Origin: a virus
Taxonomy: Duplodnaviria; Caudoviricetes
IMG/VR virus record: IMGVR_UViG_3300033075_001021
Strand: one strand, 5' to 3'
DNA length: 64,000 nt
In this document: piece after piece, positions 356-47,987 of the stretch
Layout: the number at the start of each line of letters is the position of its first letter
Position numbering within the stretch: position 1 is the stretch's first letter
Made by a program: the position numbers and the translations under genes
Notes under the pieces: model-generated
The model's input: only the letters and a program-made list of their open reading frames with translations
Databases searched by the model: none
What the model was told of the DNA's origin: nothing

Positions 356-1366
356 TTAATATAAATATCCCAATTTGTCGACTTCTTTTACGGCTTGTAT
401 AAACCTTTCTTGGTAGTCCCCCCCTATTACAACATATTGAATTTTCTTTGCGTCTAACTCAGATTTAATTTTGTTAAAATGTTCTTTTCTCCTTTCTGGG
501 AAATCACGGGTTCCATCATCAACCCAAGGTATATCGATATCCAACAATATATAAAGGTCAAAATATTGTTTAAAAATAACTTCACCTATTACAGTCGAGT
601 CAAATTGTTCACCAAGATACATTTTTCCAAACACCTTAGTCGTTATTGCTTCAGTATCAACAAAAAGAACCTTGTTACCCCTTTTTAGTTTCTCACTAAT
701 AAGTTTTTGATGACCAATTGCAATATTTTCAAAATCTAACGGTGTTAGATTTTCCGTGCCGCTAATCTCTGTATATGTTCTACCATACTCTTCAACATAA
801 TCAGTACCATAATGGGTTGCTAACTTCTTAACTAGCGTTGATTTACCTGTTGATTCTGGACCAATGATAACAACACGCTTTGTGAAGTATGGTTTTACCA
901 CATCAGGAATAAACTTCCAATTTGCATATGGATTTTCTCTAACTGCTGTTCCAGAAACAGCATAGTGACTTCTTGGTTGGTCAACCAACACGTGTTTAAT
1001 CCCCAAATATTCGGCAAACTCATCACCGTATTCTTCAGATGTAAAAACAGCATCCAACTTTTTTATGCGATTATAGACACTGGGGACCCAATATTTCTTA
1101 TAAAAAACATCAACCGATTCACACTCATGTGGATATTGTGGATTTGGGTCAGTACACCATATAATACGAATGTTAGGTTTATCTTTATAGATTTCCTTCA
1201 GCCAACCATACCTTAACCAGCCATCGATTGGTTGTGTTCCGTCAGAGCAAATCATAACGTGGGTTGTTTTACATTGCTCAGCTGCTGTATCAATTAAATA
1301 CAGATGCCCACGTTGCGGTGGCATGAATTTACCCAATACTAAACCGTTGTCATATTTTTTACCCAT
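356..1366 (-). CDS. nadR: NadR-like bifunctional NMN adenylyltransferase / ribosylnicotinamide kinase (no HTH)
   Basis: N-terminal GKFMPPQRGH (HIGH-like) and VSGTAVR motifs. C-terminal P-loop GPESTGKS, EYGRTY, LFVDT, PWVDDGTR. Confidence 0.9.
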   Translation of the reverse strand: MGKKYDNGLVLGKFMPPQRGHLYLIDTAAEQCKTTHVMICSDGTQPIDGWLRYGWLKEIYKDKPNIRIIWCTDPNPQYPHECESVDVFYKKYWVPSVYNRIKKLDAVFTSEEYGDEFAEYLGIKHVLVDQPRSHYAVSGTAVRENPYANWKFIPDVVKPYFTKRVVIIGPESTGKSTLVKKLATHYGTDYVEEYGRTYTEISGTENLTPLDFENIAIGHQKLISEKLKRGNKVLFVDTEAITTKVFGKMYLGEQFDSTVIGEVIFKQYFDLYILLDIDIPWVDDGTRDFPERRKEHFNKIKSELDAKKIQYVVIGGDYQERFIQAVKEVDKLGYLY

Positions 1367-1878
1367 TTTGTTGCTCCTTTAATTGAAAAACCGATTAAAA
1401 TAAAAAACAATATCGCTGACCAGTACATTCCTTGATTTAAAAACATTATTATAAAAAGTACATCAGCAATAATCCATGTAAAAAAACCATGAATATACTT
1501 TTTTGCCAAATACCAATTCCCTAACATACTTAGAAGAGTTGTCAAAACATCTAATTCTGCTTGTGGGTTATCAGTATATCTTTTTAACAAAGGTACCGTA
1601 ATAAATCCAATTAAACAAACAATTAATAGGTCTCTGACCCAAATATTGTGGTTTAATAATATGCAAGATTCATCTTGTGTCGCTTTCCAATAATACCAAC
1701 CATATATGCATTGTCCTAATATGATGGTATCGGCTATAACTTGACCATATAGATGCTCATTAAAGACTAGATAAATGTAAATCAACGTTGCAAGAATCGC
1801 TGAGGGCCAACAAAGCACGTTTACCTTTACAGTGTAATATGCTGAAATAAGTGTTAATATTACCGCTATTATTTCCAT
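1339..1878 (-). CDS. pnuC: PnuC-family nicotinamide riboside/vitamin transporter
   Basis: Multi-TM protein with YGWYYW, D..TT.LS..GNWYLAKKY and WIIAD motifs. Overlaps nadR and ends in TAG. Confidence 0.88.
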   Translation of the reverse strand: MEIIAVILTLISAYYTVKVNVLCWPSAILATLIYIYLVFNEHLYGQVIADTIILGQCIYGWYYWKATQDESCILLNHNIWVRDLLIVCLIGFITVPLLKRYTDNPQAELDVLTTLLSMLGNWYLAKKYIHGFFTWIIADVLFIIMFLNQGMYWSAILFFILIGFSIKGATKWVKNMTTV

Positions 1879-2051
1879 TACTCATCGAATAATTTTCTTT
1901 CCTTTAAGGAATTAAATAATTTATCCGCTCTTTCTTTTGCTTCACGAATAAACTTTATATGTTTGGCCCTTCGTATAATCTTACGAATACCACCAATTGT
2001 TTTTACTTTCTTACCCCTTTTGTTGCCCCAGTAAAGATATTGTCCTTTCAT
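1878..2051 (-). CDS. Small basic hypothetical protein (57 aa)
   Basis: MKGQYLYWGNKRGKKVKTIGGIRKIIRRAKHIKFIREAKERADKLFNSLKERKLFDE*. ATGA overlap with the TonB receptor stop and TAATG overlap with the pnuC start. Confidence 0.7.
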   Translation of the reverse strand: MKGQYLYWGNKRGKKVKTIGGIRKIIRRAKHIKFIREAKERADKLFNSLKERKLFDE

Positions 2052-4015
2052 ATTTTAATTCTTAAGGTTACAAAATAATTTGCCAATGCCGTTGGGAATA
2101 AAAATCGCTTATTGTTCATCGCATAGCCATTAAAATAGAACTTGTTATTTGTGATGTTATTACCTTGAAGTGACAACACAAGATTCTTATATGAATATGA
2201 TGCATTAAACCCAATGGTTGTACATGCTGGTACGCTAAACTGATTTTCAATGTCAATATAAGCCTTAGAATAAATTGACTGATTTACATTCATTGAAAAT
2301 GCCTTGTTTGTATAGGTCAATGATTGATTGAACATTCGATTAGGACTGAATAATTGTTGTTTATTATCAACACTAAAACGACTGTTTGAAATGCTGCCAT
2401 TCACGCTATACTGAAAGGATTTGTTAATTGTATAATCAATGTCAAATTCAATTCCCTTCCTAAAACTCTTGTCAACATTAATCATCATCGGTAAGCTATT
2501 TGCCCCCATCGGGCCAGCTGGAATGATTTCATTTTGAAATGACATGTAATACAAGTTTGCTTGTAATGTCAATTTATCACCTTTATGGTTTACCCCAAGT
2601 TCAAGGTCAACTACTTCCTCTGGTTTAACGTTGTTTAAATCAGTTAAGTAAAGACCACCATTAAATAAAATATTCCTTGTTGGTTCCCTATGCGACATAC
2701 CAATTGAATAGTAAACATCAGTGTTTTTATCCAAAAAATATTTAAAACCAACCTTTGGATTTGTAAATAACCAAGTGTATTTACCTAATGCTTTATCCCC
2801 AACATATTTAAAATCAACATACCTTGCTTGCAAATCAAAATACATCTTGAGTTCCTCAGGCCCAAAGATTAATTTAACAAAGCTACTGGCTTCATTTTTA
2901 TTTCCATAATTTTGGTAGTTGCTCTTCAATACACTACTGTCAACCATTACGAATTCAGTACCAAAGTGATTTCGCCTATATGTATTCAACGATAAACCAA
3001 CAGATAGCTTTATGTTATCATTTTTGTAATCATATTGTGTTATATAACCAGCCCAATTTGAATATTGATTCTCTTGTGCATAATAACCAAGTGTTGGTAA
3101 AGACTCTTTATTAAAGACATCGTAATTACCTTCCAAGTGATTAACAAATAAGATACTTGTTAGTTTACTTTGTTTATTAAAGATGTTGGTGTTATGTATT
3201 TGGATATGGGTTTGATTGAAAAAGTCTTTCCTGTCATTACCCCTAGGATTATCACGATAATTAACCTTCAGCACATCTTCATCAGATGCCTCCCACGCCA
3301 TTTGGTTTCGGCTAAATCCGCTAAACACAACAAATTTAGTAATGCGTTTTTCACCATAATACCCACGGGTATAAAATATACTACCACCGTGGCTTCCAGA
3401 ATTCCGCCTAAACCCATCAGTTGTCATCATACCAACATTTAAAAAGCTTGCGTGTTTATTTTTCAATCCGCTTGAATACGCAGCATTCAATCTGAAAGTA
3501 TTAAATGAACCACCACCAATTTGAACCTCAGAACCACGGTTTAAACCTGTCTTGCTTTGGAAATTAATAGACCCAATAAAGGCAGCGCTACCATTCGTTG
3601 ATGAACCAACCCCTCGTTGAATCTGAATTGATTGAATAGCGTTGATAAAGCTTGGGAAGTTTGATGTATACACACCATGGTCTTCAGGCTCATTTAATGG
3701 GACACTATTTAATGTCATATTAATGCGGTTCTGACTGGCACCTCGCATACTAACGTATGTATAGCCTTGTGAGTGACCACCATCTGTATTTGAATACATT
3801 GACGGATATGACCCTAATAAAATTGGTACCTCTTGACCTTGATAACTAGACTGAATGGCTGTATCCCCGATTGTTTTCTGGGTTATAGGGGTGAACTTAT
3901 CAGCCCTAACCGCAGTAACTAAAACAGGTGACATTTCGGTAATCTTTACTGAATCCTGTGCAAATGATTGATAACCAATTAGTGATACTAATGCAAATAC
4001 AAATAATTTTTTCAT
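2048..4015 (-). CDS. TonB-dependent outer-membrane receptor (Bacteroidota vitamin-uptake type)
   Basis: Signal peptide MKKLFVFALVSLIGYQSFAQ; plug motifs SMRGASQNRINMTLNSVPLNEPED and IQIQRGVGSSTNG..AF.GSIN; beta-barrel-like alternating pattern; LQGNNITN near the C-terminus. Confidence 0.88.
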   Translation of the reverse strand: MKKLFVFALVSLIGYQSFAQDSVKITEMSPVLVTAVRADKFTPITQKTIGDTAIQSSYQGQEVPILLGSYPSMYSNTDGGHSQGYTYVSMRGASQNRINMTLNSVPLNEPEDHGVYTSNFPSFINAIQSIQIQRGVGSSTNGSAAFIGSINFQSKTGLNRGSEVQIGGGSFNTFRLNAAYSSGLKNKHASFLNVGMMTTDGFRRNSGSHGGSIFYTRGYYGEKRITKFVVFSGFSRNQMAWEASDEDVLKVNYRDNPRGNDRKDFFNQTHIQIHNTNIFNKQSKLTSILFVNHLEGNYDVFNKESLPTLGYYAQENQYSNWAGYITQYDYKNDNIKLSVGLSLNTYRRNHFGTEFVMVDSSVLKSNYQNYGNKNEASSFVKLIFGPEELKMYFDLQARYVDFKYVGDKALGKYTWLFTNPKVGFKYFLDKNTDVYYSIGMSHREPTRNILFNGGLYLTDLNNVKPEEVVDLELGVNHKGDKLTLQANLYYMSFQNEIIPAGPMGANSLPMMINVDKSFRKGIEFDIDYTINKSFQYSVNGSISNSRFSVDNKQQLFSPNRMFNQSLTYTNKAFSMNVNQSIYSKAYIDIENQFSVPACTTIGFNASYSYKNLVLSLQGNNITNNKFYFNGYAMNNKRFLFPTALANYFVTLRIKI

Positions 4016-4506: not shown

Positions 4507-4539
4507 TTATCCTGTTGGTCCTCTAATTGTCTATTTCAT
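4507..4539 (-). other. Candidate minigene ATG AAA TAG ACA ATT AGA GGA CCA ACA GGA TAA (MK*TIRGPTG)
   Basis: Starts 11 nt after the Pth2-like stop, in an AT-rich context with A at -3. Amber codon at position 3. Confidence 0.4.
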
Positions 4540-4550
4540 AATTATAAATT

Positions 4551-4919
4551 TTAGTTATTGTTATTGGTTGTAATTAACTCTTTACCATATAGCGGTAAGT
4601 TACTGCATAGCTTTCTTGCATCAGTAGACGCCTCAAAAGCAACGGCTGTAATTTGATTGTTAATATCTGGTTCTCTGAAGATGGTATATTTGATACCACG
4701 AAGACTGGCTTTGACAATAAGGTCTATCAAAGACTGTTCATCTTTTGTTGTGAGAATTGCTAAATGATTGGATTGTTTATGCCATTCTGTTGATACCTGA
4801 GGGTATTCGTGTTGAAAATCAATGGCAGCATGTGCGGCTTGGACGCATTGTTGTGGAAGGGATAAATCACGTCTTGTGATTACTCTAAGTTTTTCTGTGT
4901 TAGAAATCTAGTGTGTCAT
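4551..4919 (-). CDS. Peptidyl-tRNA hydrolase 2 (Pth2/PTRHD1-like) family protein with an in-frame TAG at codon 4
   Basis: MTH*ISNTEKLRVITRRDLSLPQQCVQAAHAAIDFQHEYP...FREPDINNQITAVAFEASTDARKLCSNLPLYGKEL. The RRDL, QAAHA and NLPL motifs are Pth2-like. TAG at 4908-4910; no other ATG/GTG/TTG start before the conserved motifs. Confidence 0.8.
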
Positions 4920-4967
4920 AACTGTTTGTTTTTTAATAAATATACTGTTTTTGTTAAAAATATCAAG

Positions 4968-5039
4968 TGACCCAGAGGGGATTCGAACCCCTACCCACAA
5001 TTTTAGAGATTGGTGTGCTGCCATTACAACCACAGGGCC
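4968..5039 (-). tRNA. Amber suppressor tRNA, anticodon CUA
   Basis: GGCCCTG/CTGGGTC acceptor stem, anticodon loop CTCTAAA, T-arm AGGGG-TTCGAAT-CCCCT, A73; CCA not encoded. TATCTTTG promoter box at 5050-5057. Confidence 0.88.
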
Positions 5040-5082
5040 AATTATACCACAAAGATAAGTGGTATTTTTGAAATTACCAAAT

Positions 5083-5880
5083 TTATTTTATCAAAAATTT
5101 TCCAAGCCTTTTTACCCTTTCTTTTAATTGCTCATACGTCCCATTATTATCAATTATAATATCTGCGTCTTGTTTGGTTATATTAAAAGAACTTGAATCT
5201 TCTTGTGGAAGTCTTTCCGATGCATCCACCCAAATGATTAGGTCAAATAGATTTTGGTTTCTACATTCTTGAATTTCAGTCCAATCTCTCATACCAACAT
5301 AGGTATTATTATACTTCAAGATTTCTTTAGCCAATTTAGCCTTGTCATCTTTGTTATAATCACAAATCATTTGGTACCATTCGTCTCTGTGATTAATCCT
5401 ATCTTGAAAACATTCTTCTGGCGTTTTATAACCATATTTGTCTTTAAGTTCATTATAGATGAAAATGTCGGCACACGCTTGAGATGATGAGATAAAATTT
5501 ATTCCATAATACTCTTTTAATAATTCGGCTACCGTATCTTTCCCATGCCGAGCATGTCCTATTATTAGCAAATTTATATTATTATAAAACTCCTTAGAAT
5601 ATTTATGGTGTTCATAAATTTGTTCTAGTGTATACGCATCATAGGCAACAAATCCTCTGGTATCCAATGTTTTCTCAATATGAAGTTTCGCAGATGATTG
5701 TTCAATACTTAGATAATTATAAAACTTAATAGCTTCCTCTGGATTAAAAAATTCTATTATTTGTCCTTCAACGGCTTTTTCTTTCGCTTCAGCAATATCC
5801 ATATTGAGATATTTTCTAAGATACTTAAAAACTTCTACTTTGTTTATTGAAATGAGTTCAACTTTACAAATATTTTTCAT
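5083..5880 (-). CDS. Deoxynucleoside monophosphate kinase-like P-loop protein with an N-terminal bL12(L7/L12)-CTD-like domain
   Basis: Kinase motifs IIGHARHGKDT, GMR...E, IIWVDASER, ADIIIDNNGT. N-terminus NKVEVFKYLRKYLNMDIAEAKEK resembles bL12 NKVAVIKAVR..TGLGLKEAKDL. Confidence 0.7.
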   Translation of the reverse strand: MKNICKVELISINKVEVFKYLRKYLNMDIAEAKEKAVEGQIIEFFNPEEAIKFYNYLSIEQSSAKLHIEKTLDTRGFVAYDAYTLEQIYEHHKYSKEFYNNINLLIIGHARHGKDTVAELLKEYYGINFISSSQACADIFIYNELKDKYGYKTPEECFQDRINHRDEWYQMICDYNKDDKAKLAKEILKYNNTYVGMRDWTEIQECRNQNLFDLIIWVDASERLPQEDSSSFNITKQDADIIIDNNGTYEQLKERVKRLGKFLIK

Positions 5881-5907
5881 GTTGCAAAGATACTAAACTT
5901 TTTTCAA

Positions 5908-6588
5908 TTAGACAAGTAAATTTACACGACCTTTATAGATATCTTTTATACTAGCTGTTTTATTGGTAATATGGTCAATGACAATCCCATCTTTAACACG
6001 ATATGTCCTACGTTTATCACTTCGCTCACCAGTACCAATCTGTTCCCTTCTTGTCTCAGATTCTTCTTCCATAAAACCAGTTAAATAATAGTGATTAACT
6101 CTTCGTTTAATTTCTTTATAGGCATCTTCACGATTACTTAATTGGCTTCTACCATCACGTACAACCTTTATACCAGTTGGGATATGTGTCATAATGACAC
6201 AAGAGTCCGTGGTGTTTTTATGTTGACCACCTTTGCCAGTTCCTCTGGTTGTTTCAATCTTTAGTTCATGTTGGGGAATTTCAATCTCTTTAAATGATTG
6301 ATTTTCAAGTACGGCAATGGTTATGGTACTGGTATGCACCCTACCACGATTTTCTGTCGGTGGTACACGTTGCCATCTGTGTGAACCTATTTCGTTTTGG
6401 AAAAAATCTTTGACATTTTGGCCGCTTAGTCAGATTGAAGCAAAGCCATCCCGTTCTTCGAGAACTCTTCAGTTGAAGTTATTGTTTTTGGCCGCTTTGA
6501 TATAGATGTCTTTCATATCATGAACTAGCAATTTGGAATCTTGTCCACCTTCGCTAGCCCTAATCTCTAGTGTAATTTCGTTTTTCAT
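5908..6588 (-). CDS. Class I peptide chain release factor, RF1-like (PxT), lacking domain 1, with two in-frame TGA codons
   Basis: MKNEITLEIRASEGGQDSKLLVHDMKDIYIKAAKNNNFN*RVLEERDGFASI*LSGQNVKDFFQNEIGSHRWQRVPPTENRGRVHTS...GKGGQHKNTTDS...RSQLSNR...GERSDKRRTY. TGA at 6469-6471 and 6430-6432; one frame throughout (227 codons). Confidence 0.9.
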
Positions 6589-6976: not shown

Positions 6977-6981
6977 TTTTG

Positions 6982-7066
6982 TTGCGGGAGTAGGATTCGA
7001 ACCTACACTTGCATTTGATGTCTCTAGGTTATGAGCCTAGCATGTTGCCAATTACACTATCCCGCT
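6982..7066 (-). tRNA. tRNA with CAU anticodon (Met/fMet/Ile2) and an unusually long variable region
   Basis: GCGGGA/TCCCGC acceptor with an A1xA72 mismatch, CTAGG-CTCATAA-CCTAG anticodon arm, 17-nt variable region, GTAGG-TTCGAAT-CCTAC T-arm. Confidence 0.85.
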
Positions 7067-7072
7067 ATGTTG

Positions 7073-7144
7073 TTGCGAGGGGTGGATTCGAACCACCGAC
7101 CTTCTGGTTATGAGCCAGACGAGCTGCCGCTGCTCCACCTCACA
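7073..7144 (-). tRNA. tRNA-Met(CAU), initiator-like body
   Basis: TGTGAGG/CCTCGCA acceptor, TGGAGCAGCGGCAGCTCG D-arm, TCTGG-CTCATAA-CCAGA anticodon arm, GGTGG-TTCGAAT-CCACC T-arm. Confidence 0.92.
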
Positions 7145-8854: not shown

Positions 8855-8902
8855 ATCTATATATTTCTATATAAATATGCGCTAGGTACAAAAAAGTCAT
8901 CG

Positions 8903-9256
8903 TGGAGAATATCGGAATCGAACCGATGTCTTGTGCATTCTTCAAAAGCTTTCTACATGTTTAGAACAGAACTTTCTAGTTCTTCGCAATATCTTGCTGT
9001 TATGGTTAACAAGAAAACCACGGAGTTATTTAGCGTCTAACTCAGAACTGACGGTTTTTGGTGGTCTACCACCATCGCAGGATTAGGCTACTGCAAGCTC
9101 TCCTGAACCCACAGTTAGGACTGCTTCGTCAAGGAAATTTTCTGATACGATAAAATCGTTGTCGTTTGTTTTTTGATAGACATTTTAAAGTGCATTCCAA
9201 TCTAGCACTACATGCTTACTAATTACGACTATACGCAATCAATACCTGTATTCCCC
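8903..9256 (-). ncRNA. ssrA: tmRNA
   Basis: GGGGAAT/ATTCTCC-A acceptor with G3:U70; T-arm ATCGG-TTCGATT-CCGAT; internal tag ORF (A)DNDFIVSENFLDEAVLTVGSGELAVA*. Confidence 0.92.
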
Positions 9257-9351: not shown

Positions 9352-9651
9352 TTATTTTGCAAGTTTTTTTTCTTCTCGCTGTTTTTTTACCGTTGCAGCT
9401 CTTCGTTGACCAGCAACCCAATGCCTCATTTTTTCTTCAGGTGTCCATTTACCGTAGTTTTTCGGTGGTGAAATAATTCGATTAATATCTGGTGGTGTTA
9501 CCTGATATTTTCTAGCTATTTCATCAATCGTCATACCCAGACGTTTTTTCATATCCTTGATAGTCTCCTTATCCTTTTCAGTTAAGTTATAATAGTTACT
9601 AAAAAGAATTTTTTCCTCAGGTGTTAAAACTGGTACTTCTGTTTTAGGCAT
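9352..9651 (-). CDS. Hypothetical HTH-like protein
   Basis: GMTIDEIARKYQVTPPDINRII resembles an HTH; 1-nt overlap with clpP. Confidence 0.55.
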   Translation of the reverse strand: MPKTEVPVLTPEEKILFSNYYNLTEKDKETIKDMKKRLGMTIDEIARKYQVTPPDINRIISPPKNYGKWTPEEKMRHWVAGQRRAATVKKQREEKKLAK

Positions 9652-10352
9652 TATTTTTTCCCTTTTGGTTTTGTAGTAATAATGTTATCAATTATACCGT
9701 AGTTTAAGGCTTCTTCAGCTGATAACCAAAGGTCCCTTTCAGCATCTTTCATAACTTCTTTTGGGTCTTTGTTAGTATATTCGCCGAGCAAGCCAAATAA
9801 CAAGTCATTATACTTCTCACCTTCAGCAATTGAGCGTCTTATATCTTGGATGTTACCTTCAGCCCCTGTTGATACTTGGTGAAGCATTACACGGCTAAAT
9901 CTTAGTGAATGACGCTTTCCCTTGGTTCCAGCACCCAATAAAATACTACCCATGCTAGCTGCCATACCTGTGTTGATGGTAACAATGTCAGATGATACAT
10001 AATTCATTACATCCACAATTGATAAACCAGATTTTACGCTTCCACCTGGTGTGTCTACGTGAAGGGTAATGTCATTTTTATCCAATGTGTCCAAGAACAT
10101 CAACTGTGCTTGAACAACAGTACTCATCCTGTCATTCACTGGGCCAGCAAGCCAAATAATTCTGTCCATCATCATTCTTGAGAAGATATCCATCTGAGTG
10201 ACATTTAACGGCCTTTCTTCAAGAATGTATGGTGTTAATGATGCTTGGGTACCATAGATTCTATTTTGAATCTGTTCCCAATTGTAAAATTCCATTCCTG
10301 TAACGCCCATATGTTTAATGGCGTAATCTCTAAATTCGTTCGTTAGATTCAT
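9651..10352 (-). CDS. clpP: ATP-dependent Clp protease proteolytic subunit
   Basis: DIFSRMMMDRII, TPGGSV, GMAASMGS (Ser), MLHQ (His), ERDLW (Asp). Confidence 0.95.
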   Translation of the reverse strand: MNLTNEFRDYAIKHMGVTGMEFYNWEQIQNRIYGTQASLTPYILEERPLNVTQMDIFSRMMMDRIIWLAGPVNDRMSTVVQAQLMFLDTLDKNDITLHVDTPGGSVKSGLSIVDVMNYVSSDIVTINTGMAASMGSILLGAGTKGKRHSLRFSRVMLHQVSTGAEGNIQDIRRSIAEGEKYNDLLFGLLGEYTNKDPKEVMKDAERDLWLSAEEALNYGIIDNIITTKPKGKK

Positions 10353-10600
10353 AGTTCTGTTGTTATGTAAATTGGTGTGTTATCTCCGACCCAAGCGCAA
10401 CGAATATTAAAGTCAAAATATTCATATGCTTCTTCGTATGTCATACCATCTCTTTCAACCATAATTTGTAACATGGTTTCAATTGAATACGCGGCAACGG
10501 GGCCAAGATTAGGTCTTTCAGCAAGCCCTAAAATTGCATCATCAAATCCATCACAAAATAAAGCGTCTGGATTTATTTCAGCGATTTCATCTCTGGTCAT
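10349..10600 (-). CDS. Conserved phage hypothetical protein
   Basis: DGFDDAILG...AYS...EEAYEYFDFNI..AWVGDNTP; coupled to both neighbours. Confidence 0.7.
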   Translation of the reverse strand: MTRDEIAEINPDALFCDGFDDAILGLAERPNLGPVAAYSIETMLQIMVERDGMTYEEAYEYFDFNIRCAWVGDNTPIYITTEL

Positions 10601-11025
10601 TACTGTTGATTTTCGGCTGCTTCTTCCTCACCTTGTGCAAAGAGCGCTTTTATTGACTCGTGTAATGTTTCATACTTGTCGTAACCATACTTACGAAGCA
10701 ATAAGGAGAATGTGTTTACGTCAGGCTTAATGATAACGATTTTTCCTCGTTCATCGTCAAAATAGATTTGAGCAATTAATTCTTCAATAACCATTTCTTT
10801 TTGCTCAGTTTCAAGTTGTTCAAAAATGGTCTCATTCAAAAGGATGATGATATCCTCGTTGGTCATGTGTTTCAAAAGGTCGTTTGCTTTTACGACTTTT
10901 CCGATTTCTTTCAATCGATTGTTGGCTAGAATTTTGATATTAACTTCTCTTAAGTTATCAATCTGGTCAACAAATCTACTGAAGAGTTCTTGGGTGTCTT
11001 CAAATACTTCTTCAAATTTTGCCAT
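10600..11025 (-). CDS. Hypothetical protein (phage metallopeptidase-like fold, HE motif not intact)
   Basis: DIIILLNETIFEQL...EELIAQI...KPDV..F..LLRKYG pattern. Confidence 0.55.
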   Translation of the reverse strand: MAKFEEVFEDTQELFSRFVDQIDNLREVNIKILANNRLKEIGKVVKANDLLKHMTNEDIIILLNETIFEQLETEQKEMVIEELIAQIYFDDERGKIVIIKPDVNTFSLLLRKYGYDKYETLHESIKALFAQGEEEAAENQQ

Positions 11026-11064
11026 AGATAATTGTGATTTTAATATACAAATATACTAAAATAA

Positions 11065-12090
11065 TCACTGAGTTGCAACTTTCTCCCCAAGTTTTTTCAA
11101 TTCAATTATTAAATCTTTCTCTTCATCAGAAATTTGGTTTGGTACAAGCAAGTCAATTTCAACTAACATATCACCACGAACATCTGAGTTCATTGGTTTT
11201 AACCCCTTATTCTGAATTCTAAGCACTTTCCCAACTTTAGATAATTCAGGTAAAGATATTCTTATTTTTCCACCTTCTATTGTTGGTACCTCTATCTTAT
11301 CACCTAAAATAAGTTGCGGATAAGTTACTTTTATCGTCATCTTTAGGTCATCATTAACACGAACAAATTTTTCATGTGGGAGAACCATAATAGTTATTAT
11401 CAAATGACCAGCAATAGCATTTTTAGCGGCATGTCCTTTACCTTCCATTATCATCCGCATTCCATCGGCAACACCAGCTGGTATCCCTAAATCAAGAGTT
11501 TCTTCGACTGATTTAACTCCAGTTCCAGAACACGCATCACAAGATGTTTCGTATACATCACCAGCGCCAGCACATGTTGGACAAGTTTGTACGTTTCTTA
11601 TATCGCCATAAGGTGTTTTTAATATTTCGACAACCATACCACCGCCATTACATGTGGTACAAATCTTTGGATTGCTACCACCTTTTCCATGACAATTTGT
11701 ACATGTTTCATTTCTTTGATATTTGAATTTCTTTGATACACCAGAATAAACCTCCTCAAGAGTTAATTTAACAATCAAACTCATATCAGGTCCCCTATTT
11801 GCTTGTTTTTGGCTAAATCCTGACATTCCAAATTTTCTAAGAAATTCTTCCATTGGGTTGTAACCTGCACCACCCATATTTGGCTGTTGGTGACCATATA
11901 AGTCATATTTGTGCCTCTTATCTTTATCAGATAAGGTTTCATATGCTTCGGTAATTTCTTTAAACGCATCAGCGTCACCACCTTTATCTGGATGATGTGT
12001 CATTGCTAACTTACGATACGCCTTTTTAATATCGTCAAGTGAACAGCTCTTGTTTAATCCAAGAACTTCATAATAATCCCTTTTAGCCAT
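11065..12090 (-). CDS. dnaJ: DnaJ chaperone
   Basis: DYYEVLGL...HHPD J-domain, four CxxCxGxG repeats, C-terminal domain. Confidence 0.95.
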
Positions 12091-13625: not shown

Positions 13626-15077
13626 TTAAATAGTTACTGGTGCGTAACGTTCGCTGTTTATCACAGCGAACATCATGCTGATTGGTGTCAGGTCTTTACC
13701 TGCCAACAAGTTGGTAAGTAAAGATGGGCTGAATCCAGATACCAAGGCTGTTCCTTGCTTATCGAACTGAACAGGGAAGTTATCGTTCCTTGCATTAAGG
13801 TTCCAATAAACAACCTTTGGCATCTTGTACCCTGCATCAGCGTACATAGATTCAATCATCTGCTGAGCAGTTGGATTCCAACCGCTGCTACGGCCCCAAC
13901 CACCTCCAGTTGCGGAATTGAATTCCATGTCTGATAATATCAGAATCATGGTTGGCATTTCAGACTGAGCAACATTTGATTGCTTAGCCTTGGTCAAGAT
14001 TAACTTGAACACAGCTTCGATGTCTGTTGAACCATCCCAATCAGCTCTTGCCAATTGGTTGTATCTTTCACTCAATGACCCCTTAAGGTATTGAAGTTTT
14101 GGATTGGTTGAGAAAGTGATGAACGCATCTTTGAAAGGGCCTTCGTTTCTTTCTGAAATGTATAAACCTAGTGAGATAGATACATCCATGCAGGTTACGT
14201 TCTTGCTACCACCAGCTGAACAGCTCATTGAGCCAGATACGTCAACAACTGGTAACAACATTTCGTTATTGTTCAACATATAGTTTGGAAGTGCTTTCCA
14301 CTGTGCATCTGCACCCCTTGCACTACCAAATCTCAAATTCTTGGTAATATCGTATGGATATAAAGCACCAGCATTAATCTTTGTTTCACCTTTTTCAAGT
14401 GAAGTCAAGTATGCTTGGAATCTCTCCAAGTCATTCTTAGAGAATGCCTTCATGTAATCAGACATCGCCTTAGAAGGCAATTTAGAATACTCAATTGCAC
14501 TCCAGTTCTTAGAACACATCAATTGTTCTACTGTGTTAGACAAGCTAACCAATAGCTTACGATATTCTTTTGGTGAAAGGTTTAAATACTTCCTAAGAGC
14601 AGTAGCTTGACGCTTGCTTTCCCTGTTACCACCATTTGGACGTGGCATCCACTTAGCACATAGGCCATTCTTGTCGGCAAGACCCTTGCTAATAAGCTCA
14701 AGGGCTTGATTTTCAAGCCTTGTACCTACAAGTACAAGCAAGTCATCCCAACGACCATACTCTGGGAACAATGACAAGTTCTTTGCTAAAGAATCAGTCT
14801 TTGTTTCAGCAAGGTGCGCAACGATGTCTCTGAAGATTTGTCTTTCTCCAGCACCACCTCTTACGTCACGTGCCCAGAACAATAGCTTCATGGCAGTTAA
14901 AGCGTCCTCATTATACGCTTTAACAAATGCGTTGATAAGACGTTGCTTATCTTGGCCACGCATAGCACCAATCTGGAAGAACAGGTTTACACAACTGTTC
15001 AAAGATGGTGTGCTTGTAGTCATACCGTTTTCAGTGTATGAATTGTTTGTCTGTAAAGCGTTTAATAAAGTGCTCAT
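13626..15077 (-). CDS. DUF2828-type TROVE(Ro60)-like/vWA protein
   Basis: WARDVRGGAGER, YGRWDDL, AKWMPR, NAGALYPYD, MIDAS VVDVSGSM, ILSDMEF, VYWNL, VSGFSP. Confidence 0.85.
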   Translation of the reverse strand: MSTLLNALQTNNSYTENGMTTSTPSLNSCVNLFFQIGAMRGQDKQRLINAFVKAYNEDALTAMKLLFWARDVRGGAGERQIFRDIVAHLAETKTDSLAKNLSLFPEYGRWDDLLVLVGTRLENQALELISKGLADKNGLCAKWMPRPNGGNRESKRQATALRKYLNLSPKEYRKLLVSLSNTVEQLMCSKNWSAIEYSKLPSKAMSDYMKAFSKNDLERFQAYLTSLEKGETKINAGALYPYDITKNLRFGSARGADAQWKALPNYMLNNNEMLLPVVDVSGSMSCSAGGSKNVTCMDVSISLGLYISERNEGPFKDAFITFSTNPKLQYLKGSLSERYNQLARADWDGSTDIEAVFKLILTKAKQSNVAQSEMPTMILILSDMEFNSATGGGWGRSSGWNPTAQQMIESMYADAGYKMPKVVYWNLNARNDNFPVQFDKQGTALVSGFSPSLLTNLLAGKDLTPISMMFAVINSERYAPVTI

Positions 15078-25634: not shown

Positions 25635-26465
25635 TTACTCTCTTATTAAACTGTAAAGACTATGAGCATTGTGTCTTAATTTTCTAATGGCTTTTTCTTT
25701 AATTTGTCGGATTCTTTCTTTGGTTAAATCGTATTTTTCGCCAATCGCCTCAAGTGTCATAGGCTCACAGTCTGTATTGATACCAAAATAACATTCGATG
25801 ATGTTTCTTTCTCTTTCATCCAATACAGAAAGTGTTTTATTCAATTCATCTTTAATCCTGTTGTCAATAAAAAGCTTTTCAGCTTCTTCGTCATTAACAA
25901 CAATAAGGTCAATTAACTCATCACCATCTTCATTTATCACCTCATTCAATGAGTTGCATTTTGGATGTGTGAATAATTCAACTGGTTCATTGTTCTCATC
26001 TAAGATTTCACCATAGATTGGTTCACGCTCATTCTCAAACTCAAACTTTTCAATTTCTTTTTTAAGTTGAGAAAGCTTATTGATAATATTGGCTGGAAGC
26101 CTTACTGTTCTTGCATTTTCATTAAGGCTTTGAATAATTGATTGCTTAATCCACCATACAGCGTATGATATAAATCTAAACCCACGGGTGTGGTCAAATC
26201 TTGTGGCAGCTTTTACTAGGCCATAGTTTCCTTCGCTGATTAAATCAGATAAAGGTAAGCCTTGGTTTTGATAATCTTTAGCGATTGAAACAACAAATTT
26301 AAGGTTCGCATTTACCAATTTTTCAACGGCTTCTTGGTTACCTTCTTTAATTTGTTTTGCTAATTCTGTTTCTTCGTCTGGGGTTAAAAGGGTTGTTTTC
26401 CTTAGGTCTTTAAAATACTTTGATAAGCTTCTTTCATCATCAAAATTTACAAATTTTTTGGTCAT
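25635..26465 (-). CDS. RNA polymerase sigma70 factor (RpoD-like, Bacteroidota type lacking region 1.1)
   Basis: LVNANLKFVVSIAK, DLISEGNYGL, RGFRFISYAVWWIKQSI, MTLEAIG...LTKERIRQIKEKA. Confidence 0.93.
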   Translation of the reverse strand: MTKKFVNFDDERSLSKYFKDLRKTTLLTPDEETELAKQIKEGNQEAVEKLVNANLKFVVSIAKDYQNQGLPLSDLISEGNYGLVKAATRFDHTRGFRFISYAVWWIKQSIIQSLNENARTVRLPANIINKLSQLKKEIEKFEFENEREPIYGEILDENNEPVELFTHPKCNSLNEVINEDGDELIDLIVVNDEEAEKLFIDNRIKDELNKTLSVLDERERNIIECYFGINTDCEPMTLEAIGEKYDLTKERIRQIKEKAIRKLRHNAHSLYSLIRE

Positions 26466-34522: not shown

Positions 34523-36682
34523 TTAAAAGTCCATTGACAACTCTAACATTATTGTATTACCAGTTGTTAAAACCACTGGCTGACTTAGTTTACCAATTAC
34601 CACCATATCCCCATTTGTATCGTAAATGGCAACTTCAGTTACCCTTATATCTGGTGGGTTGGTTGATGGTTGTAAGCTTCTTGTTGGGTTAGTTGTTCTG
34701 TTAAAATCAGATGAATTTACCCTTACATCAAATATTGTTTTGAATATTGTTGCACCAATATAGGTTTCCAAATTACCATAGAAAAATCTTTCATCACCAA
34801 ACTGAAGAATATCTGAATTAGTATTTGGTGCCATTGATAATGGAAGTGTTATATCGTATGTTGTTGCAGCAGAATTAATCACCGTACTTAAAATAAAGCC
34901 CACTTGACCATCACAAAGGCTTGATGAATATGGGTTTTGATTTTCCAGTGCTAGTGGGTCAATGGTTTCACCAACGTTGGTTGTTAAACCAGTTGATGTA
35001 AAATCATATGCTTTCCAAGAACCTGGGTCTGGCCTATCATTAATATTATCAACAATTTGATAAAGAACCTTAAAATTAGTTGCGTAGAATCCCAAACCAT
35101 CATACAAAATACTCTCTTTCTTTCTCATGTATGGTAATTGGTCAATATCACTTATCTTAAATCCAACATCTTTCGTGGATGATGTTGTGTTTGTTATTTT
35201 GATATATGACTGACATGGCAATGTTTCTGTTAAACCAGTACCGCTTGTATTATCTAAAGCGTAAGTTATGTACATTGTTTTGTTTATATCCAATAAACCA
35301 GCAGATGTGCCACCAGTTGCGCTTATTAATTGAGCCGATAATTGTGGTAATGTCCAGTTTCTGTTTGATTTGTATGACATTGCAGCAACAATTTCATCGT
35401 CATGGATAACAACCATTTTAAGTTGTGGTAATACCTTACCAACTACTTTAGGTGTTGTAACATACGCCACATCTTCATATAAATCGTAATATTCAATATT
35501 GCTATTACCAATAACTTTAGATGTTCCACTAGCTGTAAACTTCATACCCATTTGTGTACCTTGTCCAGTAGCATAATTGCGTCTATGATACATGATATCT
35601 GGAATAGTAATACTTAATGTCTTACCATTTATTGTATCAATATAAAAGAATTCTCCATATAAATTTGATATTGTATTGTTGGTATAATGCAATAACGATA
35701 GAGATTTACTTACTGTATCGTCATAACTAAATCCAATCCCATTACATTCAGCCGCAGGCTCTGCAATATCAGTAGCACATAAGTACTCTAAATAAGGATT
35801 TTTAGTCCCCAAATAATCATATGAACCAAATTTGGTATAATTCTCATAAAGATTTGTTGTGGAAAGGCCAGTTACACCAGCTAAGTTTTCACACCAAACA
35901 TTATTCATATTCCAAACTTTAACATCATCACAAGTTATGTTTGTTGCAGAATCAAAGGAAAGTGTTCCCGAATCCCAATAAGCAGTTGATGTGTCATATC
36001 CAAATGAATCGGCTACTTCACCACCTCGATAAACGTAAACAAACGAAGTACTACCAGTTTGGTCTGAAAGGTTTGGTAGTTCCCTGTCAACAGTAATGGC
36101 GGTTCCACCAGTTGTTGTTGCTGTCGCTTGTATTTTATACCAAAGATTTGGTACAGCCCAAGTATTTTCTAATATTGTCGCACCAGTAGTTGTATAGTCG
36201 TTGATAGCTTTAAGTCTTATAAAATTACCAACATTTGCTGTAATTGCAGATGAGATATAGATAATCGTACCACCAGTTATTTTTGTGTCAAGAACAGAAC
36301 CTAAACCATTCATATAGGTGTCGCCTGTCATGGTAATGTTGGTTCCGCTAAAAAATCCTCTTTCTGTTGCCAAGTTATTAACAACAGCCTTAACAACACT
36401 AATGTTAGCTGGTGTAAGGGTGTTTAAATTGTTGGCGCTTTGGGTTGTAATAAAGGATTTGATATTTGGTTGTCTATCAAATGGTCTAAAAACCTTACTT
36501 GAGCCAGATAAAACTGGGTCAGATTGGTTGGCATCGACCACGGCCTCTCTGTCATAGTTTATTTCAGAGTCACCAATTGCCCAATAACCAAAATTTAATT
36601 GGCCTTTGGCAAGATTTTCACGACCTTTTTCAGTTAGTTTGATACTAACAAACGGACTGGTACTTTTAATAATATAGCTCAT
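34523..36682 (-). CDS. Virion tail/baseplate structural protein (paralog of 33315..34511)
   Basis: IKLTEKGRE...GDSE and VTEVAIYDTNGDMVVIGK. Confidence 0.7.
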   Translation of the reverse strand: MSYIIKSTSPFVSIKLTEKGRENLAKGQLNFGYWAIGDSEINYDREAVVDANQSDPVLSGSSKVFRPFDRQPNIKSFITTQSANNLNTLTPANISVVKAVVNNLATERGFFSGTNITMTGDTYMNGLGSVLDTKITGGTIIYISSAITANVGNFIRLKAINDYTTTGATILENTWAVPNLWYKIQATATTTGGTAITVDRELPNLSDQTGSTSFVYVYRGGEVADSFGYDTSTAYWDSGTLSFDSATNITCDDVKVWNMNNVWCENLAGVTGLSTTNLYENYTKFGSYDYLGTKNPYLEYLCATDIAEPAAECNGIGFSYDDTVSKSLSLLHYTNNTISNLYGEFFYIDTINGKTLSITIPDIMYHRRNYATGQGTQMGMKFTASGTSKVIGNSNIEYYDLYEDVAYVTTPKVVGKVLPQLKMVVIHDDEIVAAMSYKSNRNWTLPQLSAQLISATGGTSAGLLDINKTMYITYALDNTSGTGLTETLPCQSYIKITNTTSSTKDVGFKISDIDQLPYMRKKESILYDGLGFYATNFKVLYQIVDNINDRPDPGSWKAYDFTSTGLTTNVGETIDPLALENQNPYSSSLCDGQVGFILSTVINSAATTYDITLPLSMAPNTNSDILQFGDERFFYGNLETYIGATIFKTIFDVRVNSSDFNRTTNPTRSLQPSTNPPDIRVTEVAIYDTNGDMVVIGKLSQPVVLTTGNTIMLELSMDF

Positions 36683-47159: not shown

Positions 47160-47987
47160 TTAGTATTTTGTCACATTAAAATAATTCTTTCCATATCTCT
47201 GCAATTCCTCCAAGCTCCTAACCTCAGAAAGCTTTAAATGACGTTCAAATACGGGTGTTATCCCCCTATCTATAAATACATCACTTTTAACTTCTGGTTT
47301 TGAAATTATTCCAAATAAATATTCTTCTTTTGTTATCGCCGATAAACTAATATTTGTCTGGTTCCAACCTTGACTTCTATATGTCAAGGTTGTAATACCA
47401 GTTCCGCTAAAATCTTTAAACAATAACCCGTCTGTTTGGCCAGATTGGCCTATATTTTGGTCATTTTTATCTGATGAAAAAACATAAACCATTGGGTCCC
47501 CAATCATGGTTACCCTACTTACACCATCAACCGTAGCACCACTAAAATTGACATATATCTCAGATTCAACGTCGAAATTTTGGATATACTTCTCGTTATC
47601 CTTGTAGGTTTTAACGTCTTCAATTCTAGAATCTGTTTGTCCTGTAATGATACCCCCAATTGAGTAAAAATCTGAAATCGTAGCACCAACATATCTAGTA
47701 TCCTTATCAATTGGTGTTATTGGTGGTGGTAAAATGCCAACCATAAATGGAAATGTAATACCACTAGCTTGTAATTTATTAATTAAGACCGTATAATTTA
47801 CTGGTGTTGACTGACCACTAAAATCTGGAAGATAAATTATATCCGTAAACATACCCATATCATCAACATTTTGTGTTAACATAACGTTGACGTAAAAAGA
47901 CGTTGCTGTTATTTGTCCATATGTTTGACTATAATCAGCCCTGTCTATGCTATCCTCTAATAATATCGTCCTTTTAATTAATTCCAT
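47160..47987 (-). CDS. Putative structural protein
   Basis: 275-aa ORF with a VFIDRG motif. Confidence 0.6.
   Translation of the reverse strand: MELIKRTILLEDSIDRADYSQTYGQITATSFYVNVMLTQNVDDMGMFTDIIYLPDFSGQSTPVNYTVLINKLQASGITFPFMVGILPPPITPIDKDTRYVGATISDFYSIGGIITGQTDSRIEDVKTYKDNEKYIQNFDVESEIYVNFSGATVDGVSRVTMIGDPMVYVFSSDKNDQNIGQSGQTDGLLFKDFSGTGITTLTYRSQGWNQTNISLSAITKEEYLFGIISKPEVKSDVFIDRGITPVFERHLKLSEVRSLEELQRYGKNYFNVTKY

What the first reader, a model, noticed from the sequence alone, without database searches (positions are those of the whole stretch)
4507..6588. Candidate new system: a stop-codon-readthrough-gated translation termination/rescue module
Seen: within 2.1 kb on one strand lie an RF1-like release factor broken by two in-frame TGAs, an amber suppressor tRNA(CUA), a Pth2-family gene broken by an in-frame TAG, and an M-K-amber minigene. 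The other long genes in the window have no internal stops, and both TAG (1339, 7507, 17947) and TGA (2048, 10349, 23397, 24430, 29983, 61523) serve as ordinary stops. Established: bacterial RF2 and Mimiviridae eRF1 are autoregulated through internal stop codons; RF1 reads UAA/UAG and RF2 reads UAA/UGA; recoded phages carry suppressor tRNAs and release factors. Inference: the stops are regulatory sensors, not a code change. UGA leakiness (RF2 shortage or inactivation, or an opal-reading tRNA) would turn on the phage RF. That RF would compete with the amber tRNA at UAG and so tune Pth2 output, forming a cross-wired circuit. It could act as an infection timer or as a response to host translation-targeting defences.
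Basis: partly seen in the sequence, partly recalled or inferred. Interest (0 to 1): 0.93.

Follow-up and report, generated by a model that had tools for sequence, protein, structure and literature searches.

The report
Stop-codon-gated phage release factor and Pth2
A large standard-code phage keeps deliberate stop codons inside two of its own translation genes, a shortened release factor (two UGAs) and a peptidyl-tRNA-hydrolase-like gene (a UAG beside the phage's own UAG-reading tRNA); both designs are conserved across many phages, so they look like translational switches, not broken genes.

Summary
There is an RF1-type release factor without domain 1 (6588-5908) with in-frame TGAs at codons 40 and 53. 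There is a tRNA(CUA) (5039-4967). There is a Pth2-fold gene (4919-4551) whose fourth codon is TAG, with no usable start after it.

The rest of the window reads cleanly in code 11 (stops: TAA 38, TGA 9, TAG 2).

Neither gene is a pseudogene. 79 of 80 related viral RF loci are interrupted by a stop, either in frame or at a prfB-like CTT-TGA/TAG +1 frameshift. The window's clade keeps both TGAs, with pN/pS of 0.2-0.4 on all three segments.

75 of 79 scorable Pth2 loci carry ATG, 0-9 codons (0-3 in 73), then a stop. 62 have a tRNA(CUA) within 4 kb, and a TAA gate goes with tRNA(UUA) and a TGA gate with tRNA(UCA). The cultured Tenacibaculum phage pT24 has the same Pth2 design.

The "M-K-amber minigene" is chance. 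The proposed cross-wired circuit is unsupported, because the two gates occur independently in other genomes.

This scan has found both devices before on other DNA. I found no paper that describes them.

The parts
5908..6588 (-). RF1-type class-I release factor lacking domain 1 (226 codons). It has a GGQ motif and RVPPTE (a PxT-type tripeptide).
   Evidence: NCBIfam scores: prfA 198 bits, prfB 112, prfH 72. PDB RF1 matches at E 3e-40.
6469..6471 (-). First in-frame UGA (codon 40, context AAC UGA A).
   Evidence: The stop is conserved at the same codon in 10 relatives of 60-78% RF identity plus a MAG contig.
6430..6432 (-). Second in-frame UGA (codon 53, context AUC UGA C). Other clades have CUU UAG C or CUU UGA C +1 frameshifts at this site.
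5083..5880 (-). dNMP-kinase-like gene lying between the RF and the tRNA; no internal stops.
   Evidence: (phrog_38514 at 1.6e-34; phrog_139 dNMP kinase at 1.8e-11).
4967..5039 (-). Amber suppressor tRNA: anticodon CUA, 73 nt, discriminator A73, no encoded CCA. It ends 47 nt upstream of the Pth2 ATG.
   Evidence: A tRNA(CUA) lies within 4 kb of 62 related TAG-gated Pth2 loci.
4551..4919 (-). Pth2-fold (peptidyl-tRNA hydrolase 2-like) gene of 122 codons.
   Evidence: profile against solved Pth2 structures, E 9e-8. AF2 pLDDT 90.7; Foldseek TM 0.70-0.74 to 2zv3, 1q7s and 1xty.
4908..4910 (-). UAG gate, codon 4 of Pth2 (AUG ACA CAC UAG AUU).
4507..4539 (-). I judge it a chance occurrence and not part of the system.

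Best explanation
The stretch holds two independent, conserved translational gates in the translation-gene cluster of a large, low-GC phage that uses the standard code. The host is probably a Bacteroidota member.

Gate 1. The phage's short RF1-type release factor can be completed only if the ribosome fails to terminate at two in-frame UGAs. In other members of the family the same job is done by a prfB-style CUU-stop +1 frameshift. Output should therefore rise when release activity on that codon is limiting; for UGA that is the host's RF2. Two stops in series should make the response steep. The product has RF1-type recognition motifs, so it could terminate at UAA and UAG, which end 40 of the 49 long ORFs in the window.

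Gate 2. The Pth2-fold hydrolase has UAG as its fourth codon. It can be made only when the phage's own tRNA(CUA), encoded 47 nt upstream, outcompetes RF1 at that codon. The abortive product is only a tripeptide.

Shown: the anatomy, the conservation, the purifying selection, and the stop/anticodon covariation.

Inferred: that readthrough actually happens, which tRNA reads UGA, which amino acids are inserted, and the sensing logic.
For: RF gene:
- Pfam, NCBIfam and PDB homology continues across both TGAs.
- 79 of 80 IMG/VR relatives are interrupted: 46 by a +1 shift at CTT|TGA, CTT|TAG or (once) CTT|TAA, and 33 by in-frame stops.
- 33 of 42 scripted frameshift loci have an SD-like GGAGG upstream.
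- In the window's clade both TGAs are invariant in 11 sequences although pS is about 0.55-0.65. pN/pS is 0.21 before TGA1, 0.41 between the stops and 0.25 after TGA2.
- Relatives and solved RF1s have I, C, L, T or V at these positions, never a conserved W.
- Gate type tracks composition. SD-assisted frameshifts sit in loci of mean GC 54%, while double in-frame stops sit at GC 33%.
- 58 of 68 loci from the cellular genome collection also use CTT|TGA or CTT|TAG.

Pth2 gene:
- 75 of 79 scorable loci have an ATG leader followed by a stop; 73 of these stops are TAG.
- 62 have tRNA(CUA) within 4 kb. The one TAA-gated locus has tRNA(UUA) and the one TGA-gated locus has tRNA(UCA). A TGAA site lies beside a tRNA that ARAGORN calls with a four-base UUCA anticodon.
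- The base after the gate stop is a purine in 75 of 75 loci.
- The codons after the stop include GGC, AGC, AAT and GTA, which cannot start translation.
- The cultured phage pT24 has the same design.

Window-wide: the code is standard and TAG is rare as a terminator.
Against:
- No phage tRNA(UCA) was found in relatives. The UGAs would therefore have to be read by near-cognate tRNA-Trp, and two stops in series would give a very low yield unless RF2 is strongly limiting.
- No conserved RNA structure was found that could stimulate readthrough.
- The product looks RF1-specific, so a UGA gate cannot be classical autoregulation.
- The gates might only set a fixed low expression level and not sense anything.
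- The Pth2-like protein has a two-residue gap where the aligned solved Pth2 has GK, so its substrate may not be ordinary peptidyl-tRNA.
Confidence: 0.62

Rival explanations
1. Cross-wired circuit. UGA leakiness turns on the phage RF1-type factor. That factor then competes with tRNA(CUA) at the Pth2 UAG. The four parts would form one termination-stress or timer circuit.
For: RF, tRNA(CUA) and Pth2 lie within 2.1 kb on one strand. The order RF ... tRNA(CUA) ... Pth2 within about 3.5 kb is kept in 16 related loci. The RF has RF1-type motifs (PPT, plus the Q and T of QRVPPTE..HTS), so competition at UAG is mechanistically expected. Terminator-like hairpins flank the block at 6915-6902 and 4108-4077, so it could be one transcription unit.
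Against: The modules are separable. G003 has the gated RF without Pth2 or tRNA(CUA). pT24 has tRNA(CUA) and gated Pth2 but gave no RF hit. 64 of 80 Pth2 loci have no RF within 4 kb. Nothing has been measured.
Confidence: 0.2
2. Fixed attenuators. The stops only hold the yield of two potentially toxic proteins at a constant low level and do not respond to release-factor or tRNA levels.
For: Overexpressed RF2, and to a lesser degree RF1, reduces fitness in B. subtilis (PMC12421855). UGA gates in an RF1-type gene cannot autoregulate. The abortive products are very short.
Against: A weak ribosome-binding site or promoter would achieve the same more simply. The prfB-like cassette (SD, CUU, stop) is by its mechanism sensitive to release-factor concentration. 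A dedicated tRNA is kept next to the Pth2 gate and covaries with it.
Confidence: 0.2
3. Code change. TGA (Trp) and/or TAG are sense codons for this phage, at least late in infection, and these two genes are simply written in the alternative code, as in code-4 or code-15 phages.
For: Recoded phages carry suppressor tRNAs and release factors (bioRxiv 10.1101/2021.08.26.457843). Only 64 kb of a genome that is probably over 300 kb is visible; the syntenic relative G001 is rated 23% complete at 83 kb.
Against: Only two genes in 64 kb carry internal stops, and long structural-size ORFs have none. TGA ends 9 ORFs, including ATGA overlaps. The TGAs never alternate with TGG among 11 diverged sequences. 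In other clades the same sites hold TAG or a frameshift. Borges et al. describe the Jade 'code-change module' as written in standard code.
Confidence: 0.06
4. Pseudogenes or sequencing errors.
For: Internal stops are the usual sign of decay.
Against: Two further assemblies are identical or 99.8% identical. The stops are conserved at the same codons across relatives of 40-78% identity. pN/pS is 0.2-0.4 on both sides of the RF stops. The Pth2 stop covaries with the tRNA anticodon.
Confidence: 0.02

Closest known systems
Bacterial prfB (RF2) autoregulatory +1 programmed frameshift (SD-N3-CUU UGA C)
   Same: It is a release-factor gene interrupted by a stop whose bypass depends on poor termination. 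Many relatives of the window's gene carry the same cassette: GGAGG, a spacer, CUU, a stop, then C or G.
   Different: The protein is RF1-type and lacks domain 1. The site lies in domain 2, not at codon 26. The stop is UGA, UAG or (once) UAA. Prince et al. found no TAG among 8,164 prfB motifs and no convincing frameshift in prfA (PMC12421855). The window's own copy needs no frameshift; it needs two in-frame UGA readthroughs.
Mimivirus/Megavirus class-I release factor gene (one frameshift plus one readthrough)
   Same: It is a virus-encoded termination factor whose translation must pass two internal stop codons, which the authors interpret as autoregulation (PMC3521657).
   Different: That factor is eRF1-type, in a eukaryotic virus. 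Here the factor is a bacterial RF1-type protein in phages, and both events are readthrough.
Stop-codon-recoded phages (code 15, TAG to Gln; code 4, TGA to Trp) with phage suppressor tRNAs and RFs
   Same: A phage suppressor tRNA opens genes that contain in-frame stops, and release factors sit in the same gene neighbourhood.
   Different: Those phages recode many late genes. In this 64-kb window only one gene carries an in-frame TAG and only one carries in-frame TGAs, and these are themselves translation genes. The gate sits at codons 2-5.
Streptomyces bldA tRNA-Leu(UAA) gating TTA-containing regulatory genes
   Same: It works alike: a dedicated tRNA acts as a translational licence for a few target genes.
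   Different: bldA reads a rare sense codon. Here a stop codon is read in competition with RF1, and the target sits next to the tRNA gene.
PrfH and ArfB (domain-1-less, GGQ-bearing rescue factors)
   Same: They are also short and lack domain 1 (PrfH matches at 72 bits; PDB 9mor at E 2e-12).
   Different: The window's protein is far closer to RF1 (198 bits) and keeps a PxT-type tripeptide (PPT). I did not look for an RtcB partner.

Membership tests
Class-I release factor RF1 (prfA) | GGQ catalytic motif in an RF-1 domain | tested here: met
   GKGGQ is present. Pfam RF-1 matches at 2.8e-25. G-x-GGQ is present in all 80 relatives.
Class-I release factor RF1 (prfA) | PxT tripeptide with the flanking Q...HTS (RF1-type stop recognition), as opposed to SPF | tested here: met
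   The sequence reads HRWQRVPPTENRGRVHTS. PPT is invariant in alignment A1. The actual codon specificity was not measured.
Class-I release factor RF1 (prfA) | Full four-domain architecture including N-terminal domain 1, and the equivalog score | tested here: not met
   The match starts at position 104 of the 347-position prfA model. The score is 198 bits against a cut-off of 400. The ORF upstream is unrelated.
prfB-type programmed +1 frameshift | CUU (Leu) followed by a stop, with the downstream part of the gene in the +1 frame | tested here: not met
   In the window both parts are in one frame, and the codons before the stops are AAC and AUC. The feature is met in 46 of 80 viral relatives and 58 of 68 cellular-collection loci.
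Peptidyl-tRNA hydrolase 2 (PF01981) | Sequence match above the Pfam gathering score | tested here: met
   32.9 bits against a cut-off of 23. The NCBIfam equivalog cut-offs are not reached: 28 against 126.
Peptidyl-tRNA hydrolase 2 (PF01981) | Pth2 alpha/beta fold | tested here: met
   The AF2 model has pLDDT 90.7. Top Foldseek hits are MJ0051, Bit1/PTRH2, AF2095 and S. solfataricus Pth2 at TM 0.66-0.74.
Peptidyl-tRNA hydrolase 2 (PF01981) | Catalytic residues and hydrolase activity on peptidyl-tRNA | tested here: inconclusive
   FREPD..NNQITA is invariant and aligns with the D-A-G...T-A segment. There is a two-residue gap where the aligned solved Pth2 (2zv3) has GK. Activity cannot be tested here.
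Stop-codon-recoded phage (code 4 or code 15) | Many genes with in-frame TGA or TAG, and longer ORFs under the alternative code | tested here: not met
   for the 64 kb available. The rest of the genome was not available.
Nonsense suppressor tRNA | Cloverleaf tRNA with an anticodon complementary to a stop codon | tested here: met
   ARAGORN and Rfam both call it, with a CUA anticodon in a 7-nt loop.
Nonsense suppressor tRNA | Aminoacylation and the identity of the inserted residue | not testable with these tools
   The nearest phage tRNA is a tRNA-Arg(UCU) at 74% identity, and no clear identity set was seen.

The most novel reading that the evidence does not exclude
Large phages and some bacteria carry a previously undescribed termination-homeostasis device. 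It is an RF1-type factor whose synthesis is licensed by failure to terminate at a built-in UGA or UAG, and it has evolved interchangeably as an SD-assisted +1 frameshift, an SD-less frameshift, or tandem readthrough. In this phage's clade it is functionally coupled to a second device, in which a dedicated suppressor tRNA is the translational key for a Pth2-like enzyme. Together they would let the phage read and reset the cell's balance between RF1, RF2 and suppression during infection.
Probability: 0.2. Interest if true: 0.9.

Novelty: new variant of a known kind. Interest (0 to 1): 0.8.

Why it matters
Programmed recoding of a release-factor gene has been a textbook peculiarity of RF2, with a parallel in giant-virus eRF1.

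Here an RF1-type family is gated in nearly every member, with UGA, UAG or UAA, and by frameshift or by readthrough. That makes it possible to test whether such gates sense termination capacity in trans and not only through autoregulation.

The amber-gated Pth2 gives the puzzling suppressor tRNAs of standard-code phages a concrete natural target. It is also a compact natural tRNA-licensed switch. A cultured phage, Tenacibaculum phage pT24, carries it, so it can be tested at the bench.

Tried and rejected
- Whole genome: none is held, so I could not look for tRNA(UCA) or tRNA-Trp in this phage's own genome. I used relatives G001-G004 instead.
- The window region has no nucleotide match in GenBank phages and no exact match in IMG/VR.
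- tRNA(UCA): ARAGORN's 'tRNA-SeC(tca)' in G002 is a miscalled tRNA-Glu(UUC). No true opal suppressor was found in G001-G004.
- tRNA-Trp(CCA) with a 4-bp anticodon stem. This lead comes from PMC13092985. The 27:43 pair is unpaired in G001 and G004 but not in G002, and 6-23% of all tRNAs in these phages show the same mismatch. It stays an idea only.
- A conserved readthrough-stimulating RNA structure around the TGAs: only a 4-bp hairpin with no compensatory changes.
- M-K-amber minigene: at chance frequency.
- The amino acid carried by tRNA(CUA): undetermined.
- Sigma-70 promoter scan: hits were no more than in shuffles.
- Gene context of the cellular homologues (Minicystis, Thiobacillus): Pfam gave nothing informative.
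Full report
**What is there**

All genes in the window run on the minus strand. The window is phage DNA. It encodes a DnaB-like helicase, an SbcC-like nuclease and many ORFs with only PHROG matches or none. It also carries a tmRNA, two tRNA-Met genes, ClpP, DnaJ and a sigma-70 factor. No host genome is held for it.

Within 4507-6588 I find the following.
- An RF gene at 6588..5908, with TGA at codons 40 and 53.
- A dNMP-kinase-like gene at 5880..5083.
- A tRNA(CUA) at 5039..4967.
- A Pth2-like gene that begins ATG ACA CAC TAG ATT at 4919 and ends at 4551.

Pfam PCRF and RF-1 matches span both TGAs. The RF protein is much closer to RF1 than to the alternatives: 198 bits for prfA, 112 for prfB and 72 for PrfH, and E 3e-40 against solved RF1 structures. 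It keeps GGQ and an RF1-type RVPPTE...HTS motif. It starts at about position 104 of the prfA model, so domain 1 is missing.

**The code of the window**

The window uses the standard code. Reading TGA or TAG as sense does not lengthen the long ORFs. The 49 long minus-strand ORFs end in TAA 38 times, TGA 9 times and TAG twice. Pth2 is the only ORF with an early in-frame TAG and no later start codon.

Two independent assemblies reproduce the region.

**The RF gate is a family trait**

The first relatives already showed three designs.
- L004, at 77% identity, has the same two TGAs with diverged codons around them.
- L001 and L006 have a +1 shift at UGU CUU UAG C, at the position of the window's second TGA.
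- L002 has GGGGG-UCC-CUU UGA C, a prfB-like cassette, at the first.

A profile search returned 80 IMG/VR loci. I classified them by script and by eye.
- 46 need a +1 shift at CTT|stop. Among the 42 classified by script, the stop is TGA in 29, TAG in 12 and TAA in 1, and 33 have an SD-like run upstream.
- 33 have one or two in-frame stops.
- One is uninterrupted.

In the window's clade of 11 sequences, both TGAs are invariant although synonymous sites are close to saturated. pN/pS is 0.21 before the first TGA, 0.41 between the two and 0.25 after the second. All three pieces are therefore translated under selection.

The residues at these positions in relatives and in solved RF1s are I, C, L, T, V and F, with no conserved W. 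What is kept is the stop itself, not a residue.

Gate type tracks composition. SD-assisted frameshifts occur in loci of mean GC 54%. Double in-frame stops and the SD-less frameshift occur at GC 31-33%. This fits hosts that do not use SD pairing, but that reading is inference.

The family also occurs in records of the cellular genome collection. These include Nannocystis and Minicystis chromosomes, Variovorax, Thiobacillus and a Cupriavidus plasmid, besides phage-like contigs binned into MAGs. 58 of 68 such loci use CTT|TGA or CTT|TAG.

**The Pth2 gate and its tRNA**

All ten first relatives had ATG, one to four codons, then a stop. Nine had TAG; L012, whose gene is broken further downstream, had TAA. 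A tRNA(CUA) lay within about 2 kb in eight of the ten, and L012 instead had a tRNA(UUA).

In a second set of 80 loci:
- 75 are gated, 73 of them by TAG.
- 62 of the TAG-gated loci have tRNA(CUA) within 4 kb.
- The single TAA gate sits beside tRNA(UUA) and the single TGA gate beside tRNA(UCA).
- A TGAA site sits beside a tRNA that ARAGORN calls with a four-base UUCA anticodon.
- The base after the gate stop is always a purine (75 of 75).
- The codons after the stop include GGC, AGC, AAT and GTA, so re-initiation at that point is not an option.

The protein has the Pth2 fold: pLDDT 90.7 and TM 0.70-0.74 to MJ0051 and Bit1. The family profile matches solved Pth2 at E 9e-8. It has a two-residue gap where the aligned solved Pth2 has GK, so I call it Pth2-like.

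The cultured Tenacibaculum phage pT24 has ATG AAA TAG followed by a Pth2 domain, with its annotated tRNA-Sup 2.6 kb upstream. Mycobacteriophage Myrna gp84 is an ungated homologue.

**Are the two gates one circuit?**

The order RF, tRNA(CUA), Pth2 is kept only in the window's clade, in 16 of 80 Pth2 loci.

Among near-complete relatives, G002 and G004 have all three parts. G003 (96% complete) has an RF gated by TGA and then TAG, but no Pth2 and no tRNA(CUA). pT24 has the Pth2 pair but gave no RF hit.

An RF1-type factor would be expected to compete with tRNA(CUA) wherever both are present. That step remains inference. I found no true tRNA(UCA) in any relative and no conserved stimulatory RNA structure.

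**Comparison with what is known**

Prince et al. surveyed more than 12,000 bacterial genomes. They found no TAG among 8,164 prfB motifs and no convincing frameshift in prfA (PMC12421855).

Jeudy et al. showed a frameshift plus a readthrough in the Mimivirus eRF1-type gene (PMC3521657).

Borges et al. describe suppressor tRNAs and RFs in phages that recode many genes, and they describe the Jade 'code-change module' as written in standard code.

My literature searches found no description of a gated RF1-type factor or of an amber-gated Pth2.

Earlier notes of this scan report the same two devices on other DNA. I re-derived the main claims independently here.

**Verdict**

The broad reading, regulatory stops and not a code change or decay, is well supported. 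The sensing logic is plausible but unproven. The cross-wired circuit and the minigene are not supported.

Noticed in passing
window 8900-9256 (-), 6981-7144 (-): The phage encodes a tmRNA (Rfam 64.8 bits) and two tRNA-Met(CAT) genes, one of them 86 nt long, just upstream of the RF block. The syntenic relative G001 has the same set.
   Followed up: partly
window 356-4015 (-): There is an NAD-salvage-like trio in a phage: a protein with an AAA_28 domain plus a weak nucleotidyltransferase-like match (NadR-like), a PnuC-type NMN transporter, and a 655-aa TonB-dependent receptor with an apparent N-terminal signal sequence.
   Followed up: no
window 9651-12090 (-), 25635-26465 (-): The phage encodes ClpP-like (238 bits) and DnaJ-like (326 bits) proteins and a full sigma-70 factor (regions 1.2, 2 and 4).
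   Followed up: no
window 13626-15077 (-): A 483-aa protein matches DUF7788 and DUF2828 and phrog_850 ('RNA-binding protein', 1.5e-160). Its function is unknown.
   Followed up: no
L248 3873-3948; L183 4678-4750: Some related phages carry tRNAs that ARAGORN calls with four-base anticodons. One, UUCA, lies next to a Pth2 gene whose gate reads TGAA, which suggests four-base decoding.
   Followed up: partly
G001 47648-47719; G004 35938-36011: The phage tRNA-Trp(CCA) genes of two relatives have an unpaired 27:43 position, giving a 4-bp anticodon stem. A 2026 NAR paper links this feature to UGA reading. G002's copy has five pairs, so the link to the UGA-gated RF is unproven.
   Followed up: partly
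L181 3001-3906 (Tenacibaculum phage pT24) and L007 5989-6909: In some phages the amber-gated Pth2 domain is fused to a C-terminal domain of about 190 aa. The deposited pT24 annotation starts the CDS after the gate and so truncates the Pth2 domain.
   Followed up: no
L263 (PLXT01000115.1) and L264 (JAJONO010000002.1): Two contigs of 150-170 kb, binned as a Methanobacterium MAG and a Bacteroidetes MAG, carry the double-TGA RF at 75% and 64% identity. They are probably mis-binned jumbo-phage contigs.
   Followed up: no
G004 51866-52183: The 362-kb relative has a second, partial RF copy (residues 67-172 of the C-terminal query, 72% identity) about 3 kb from the full gene.
   Followed up: no
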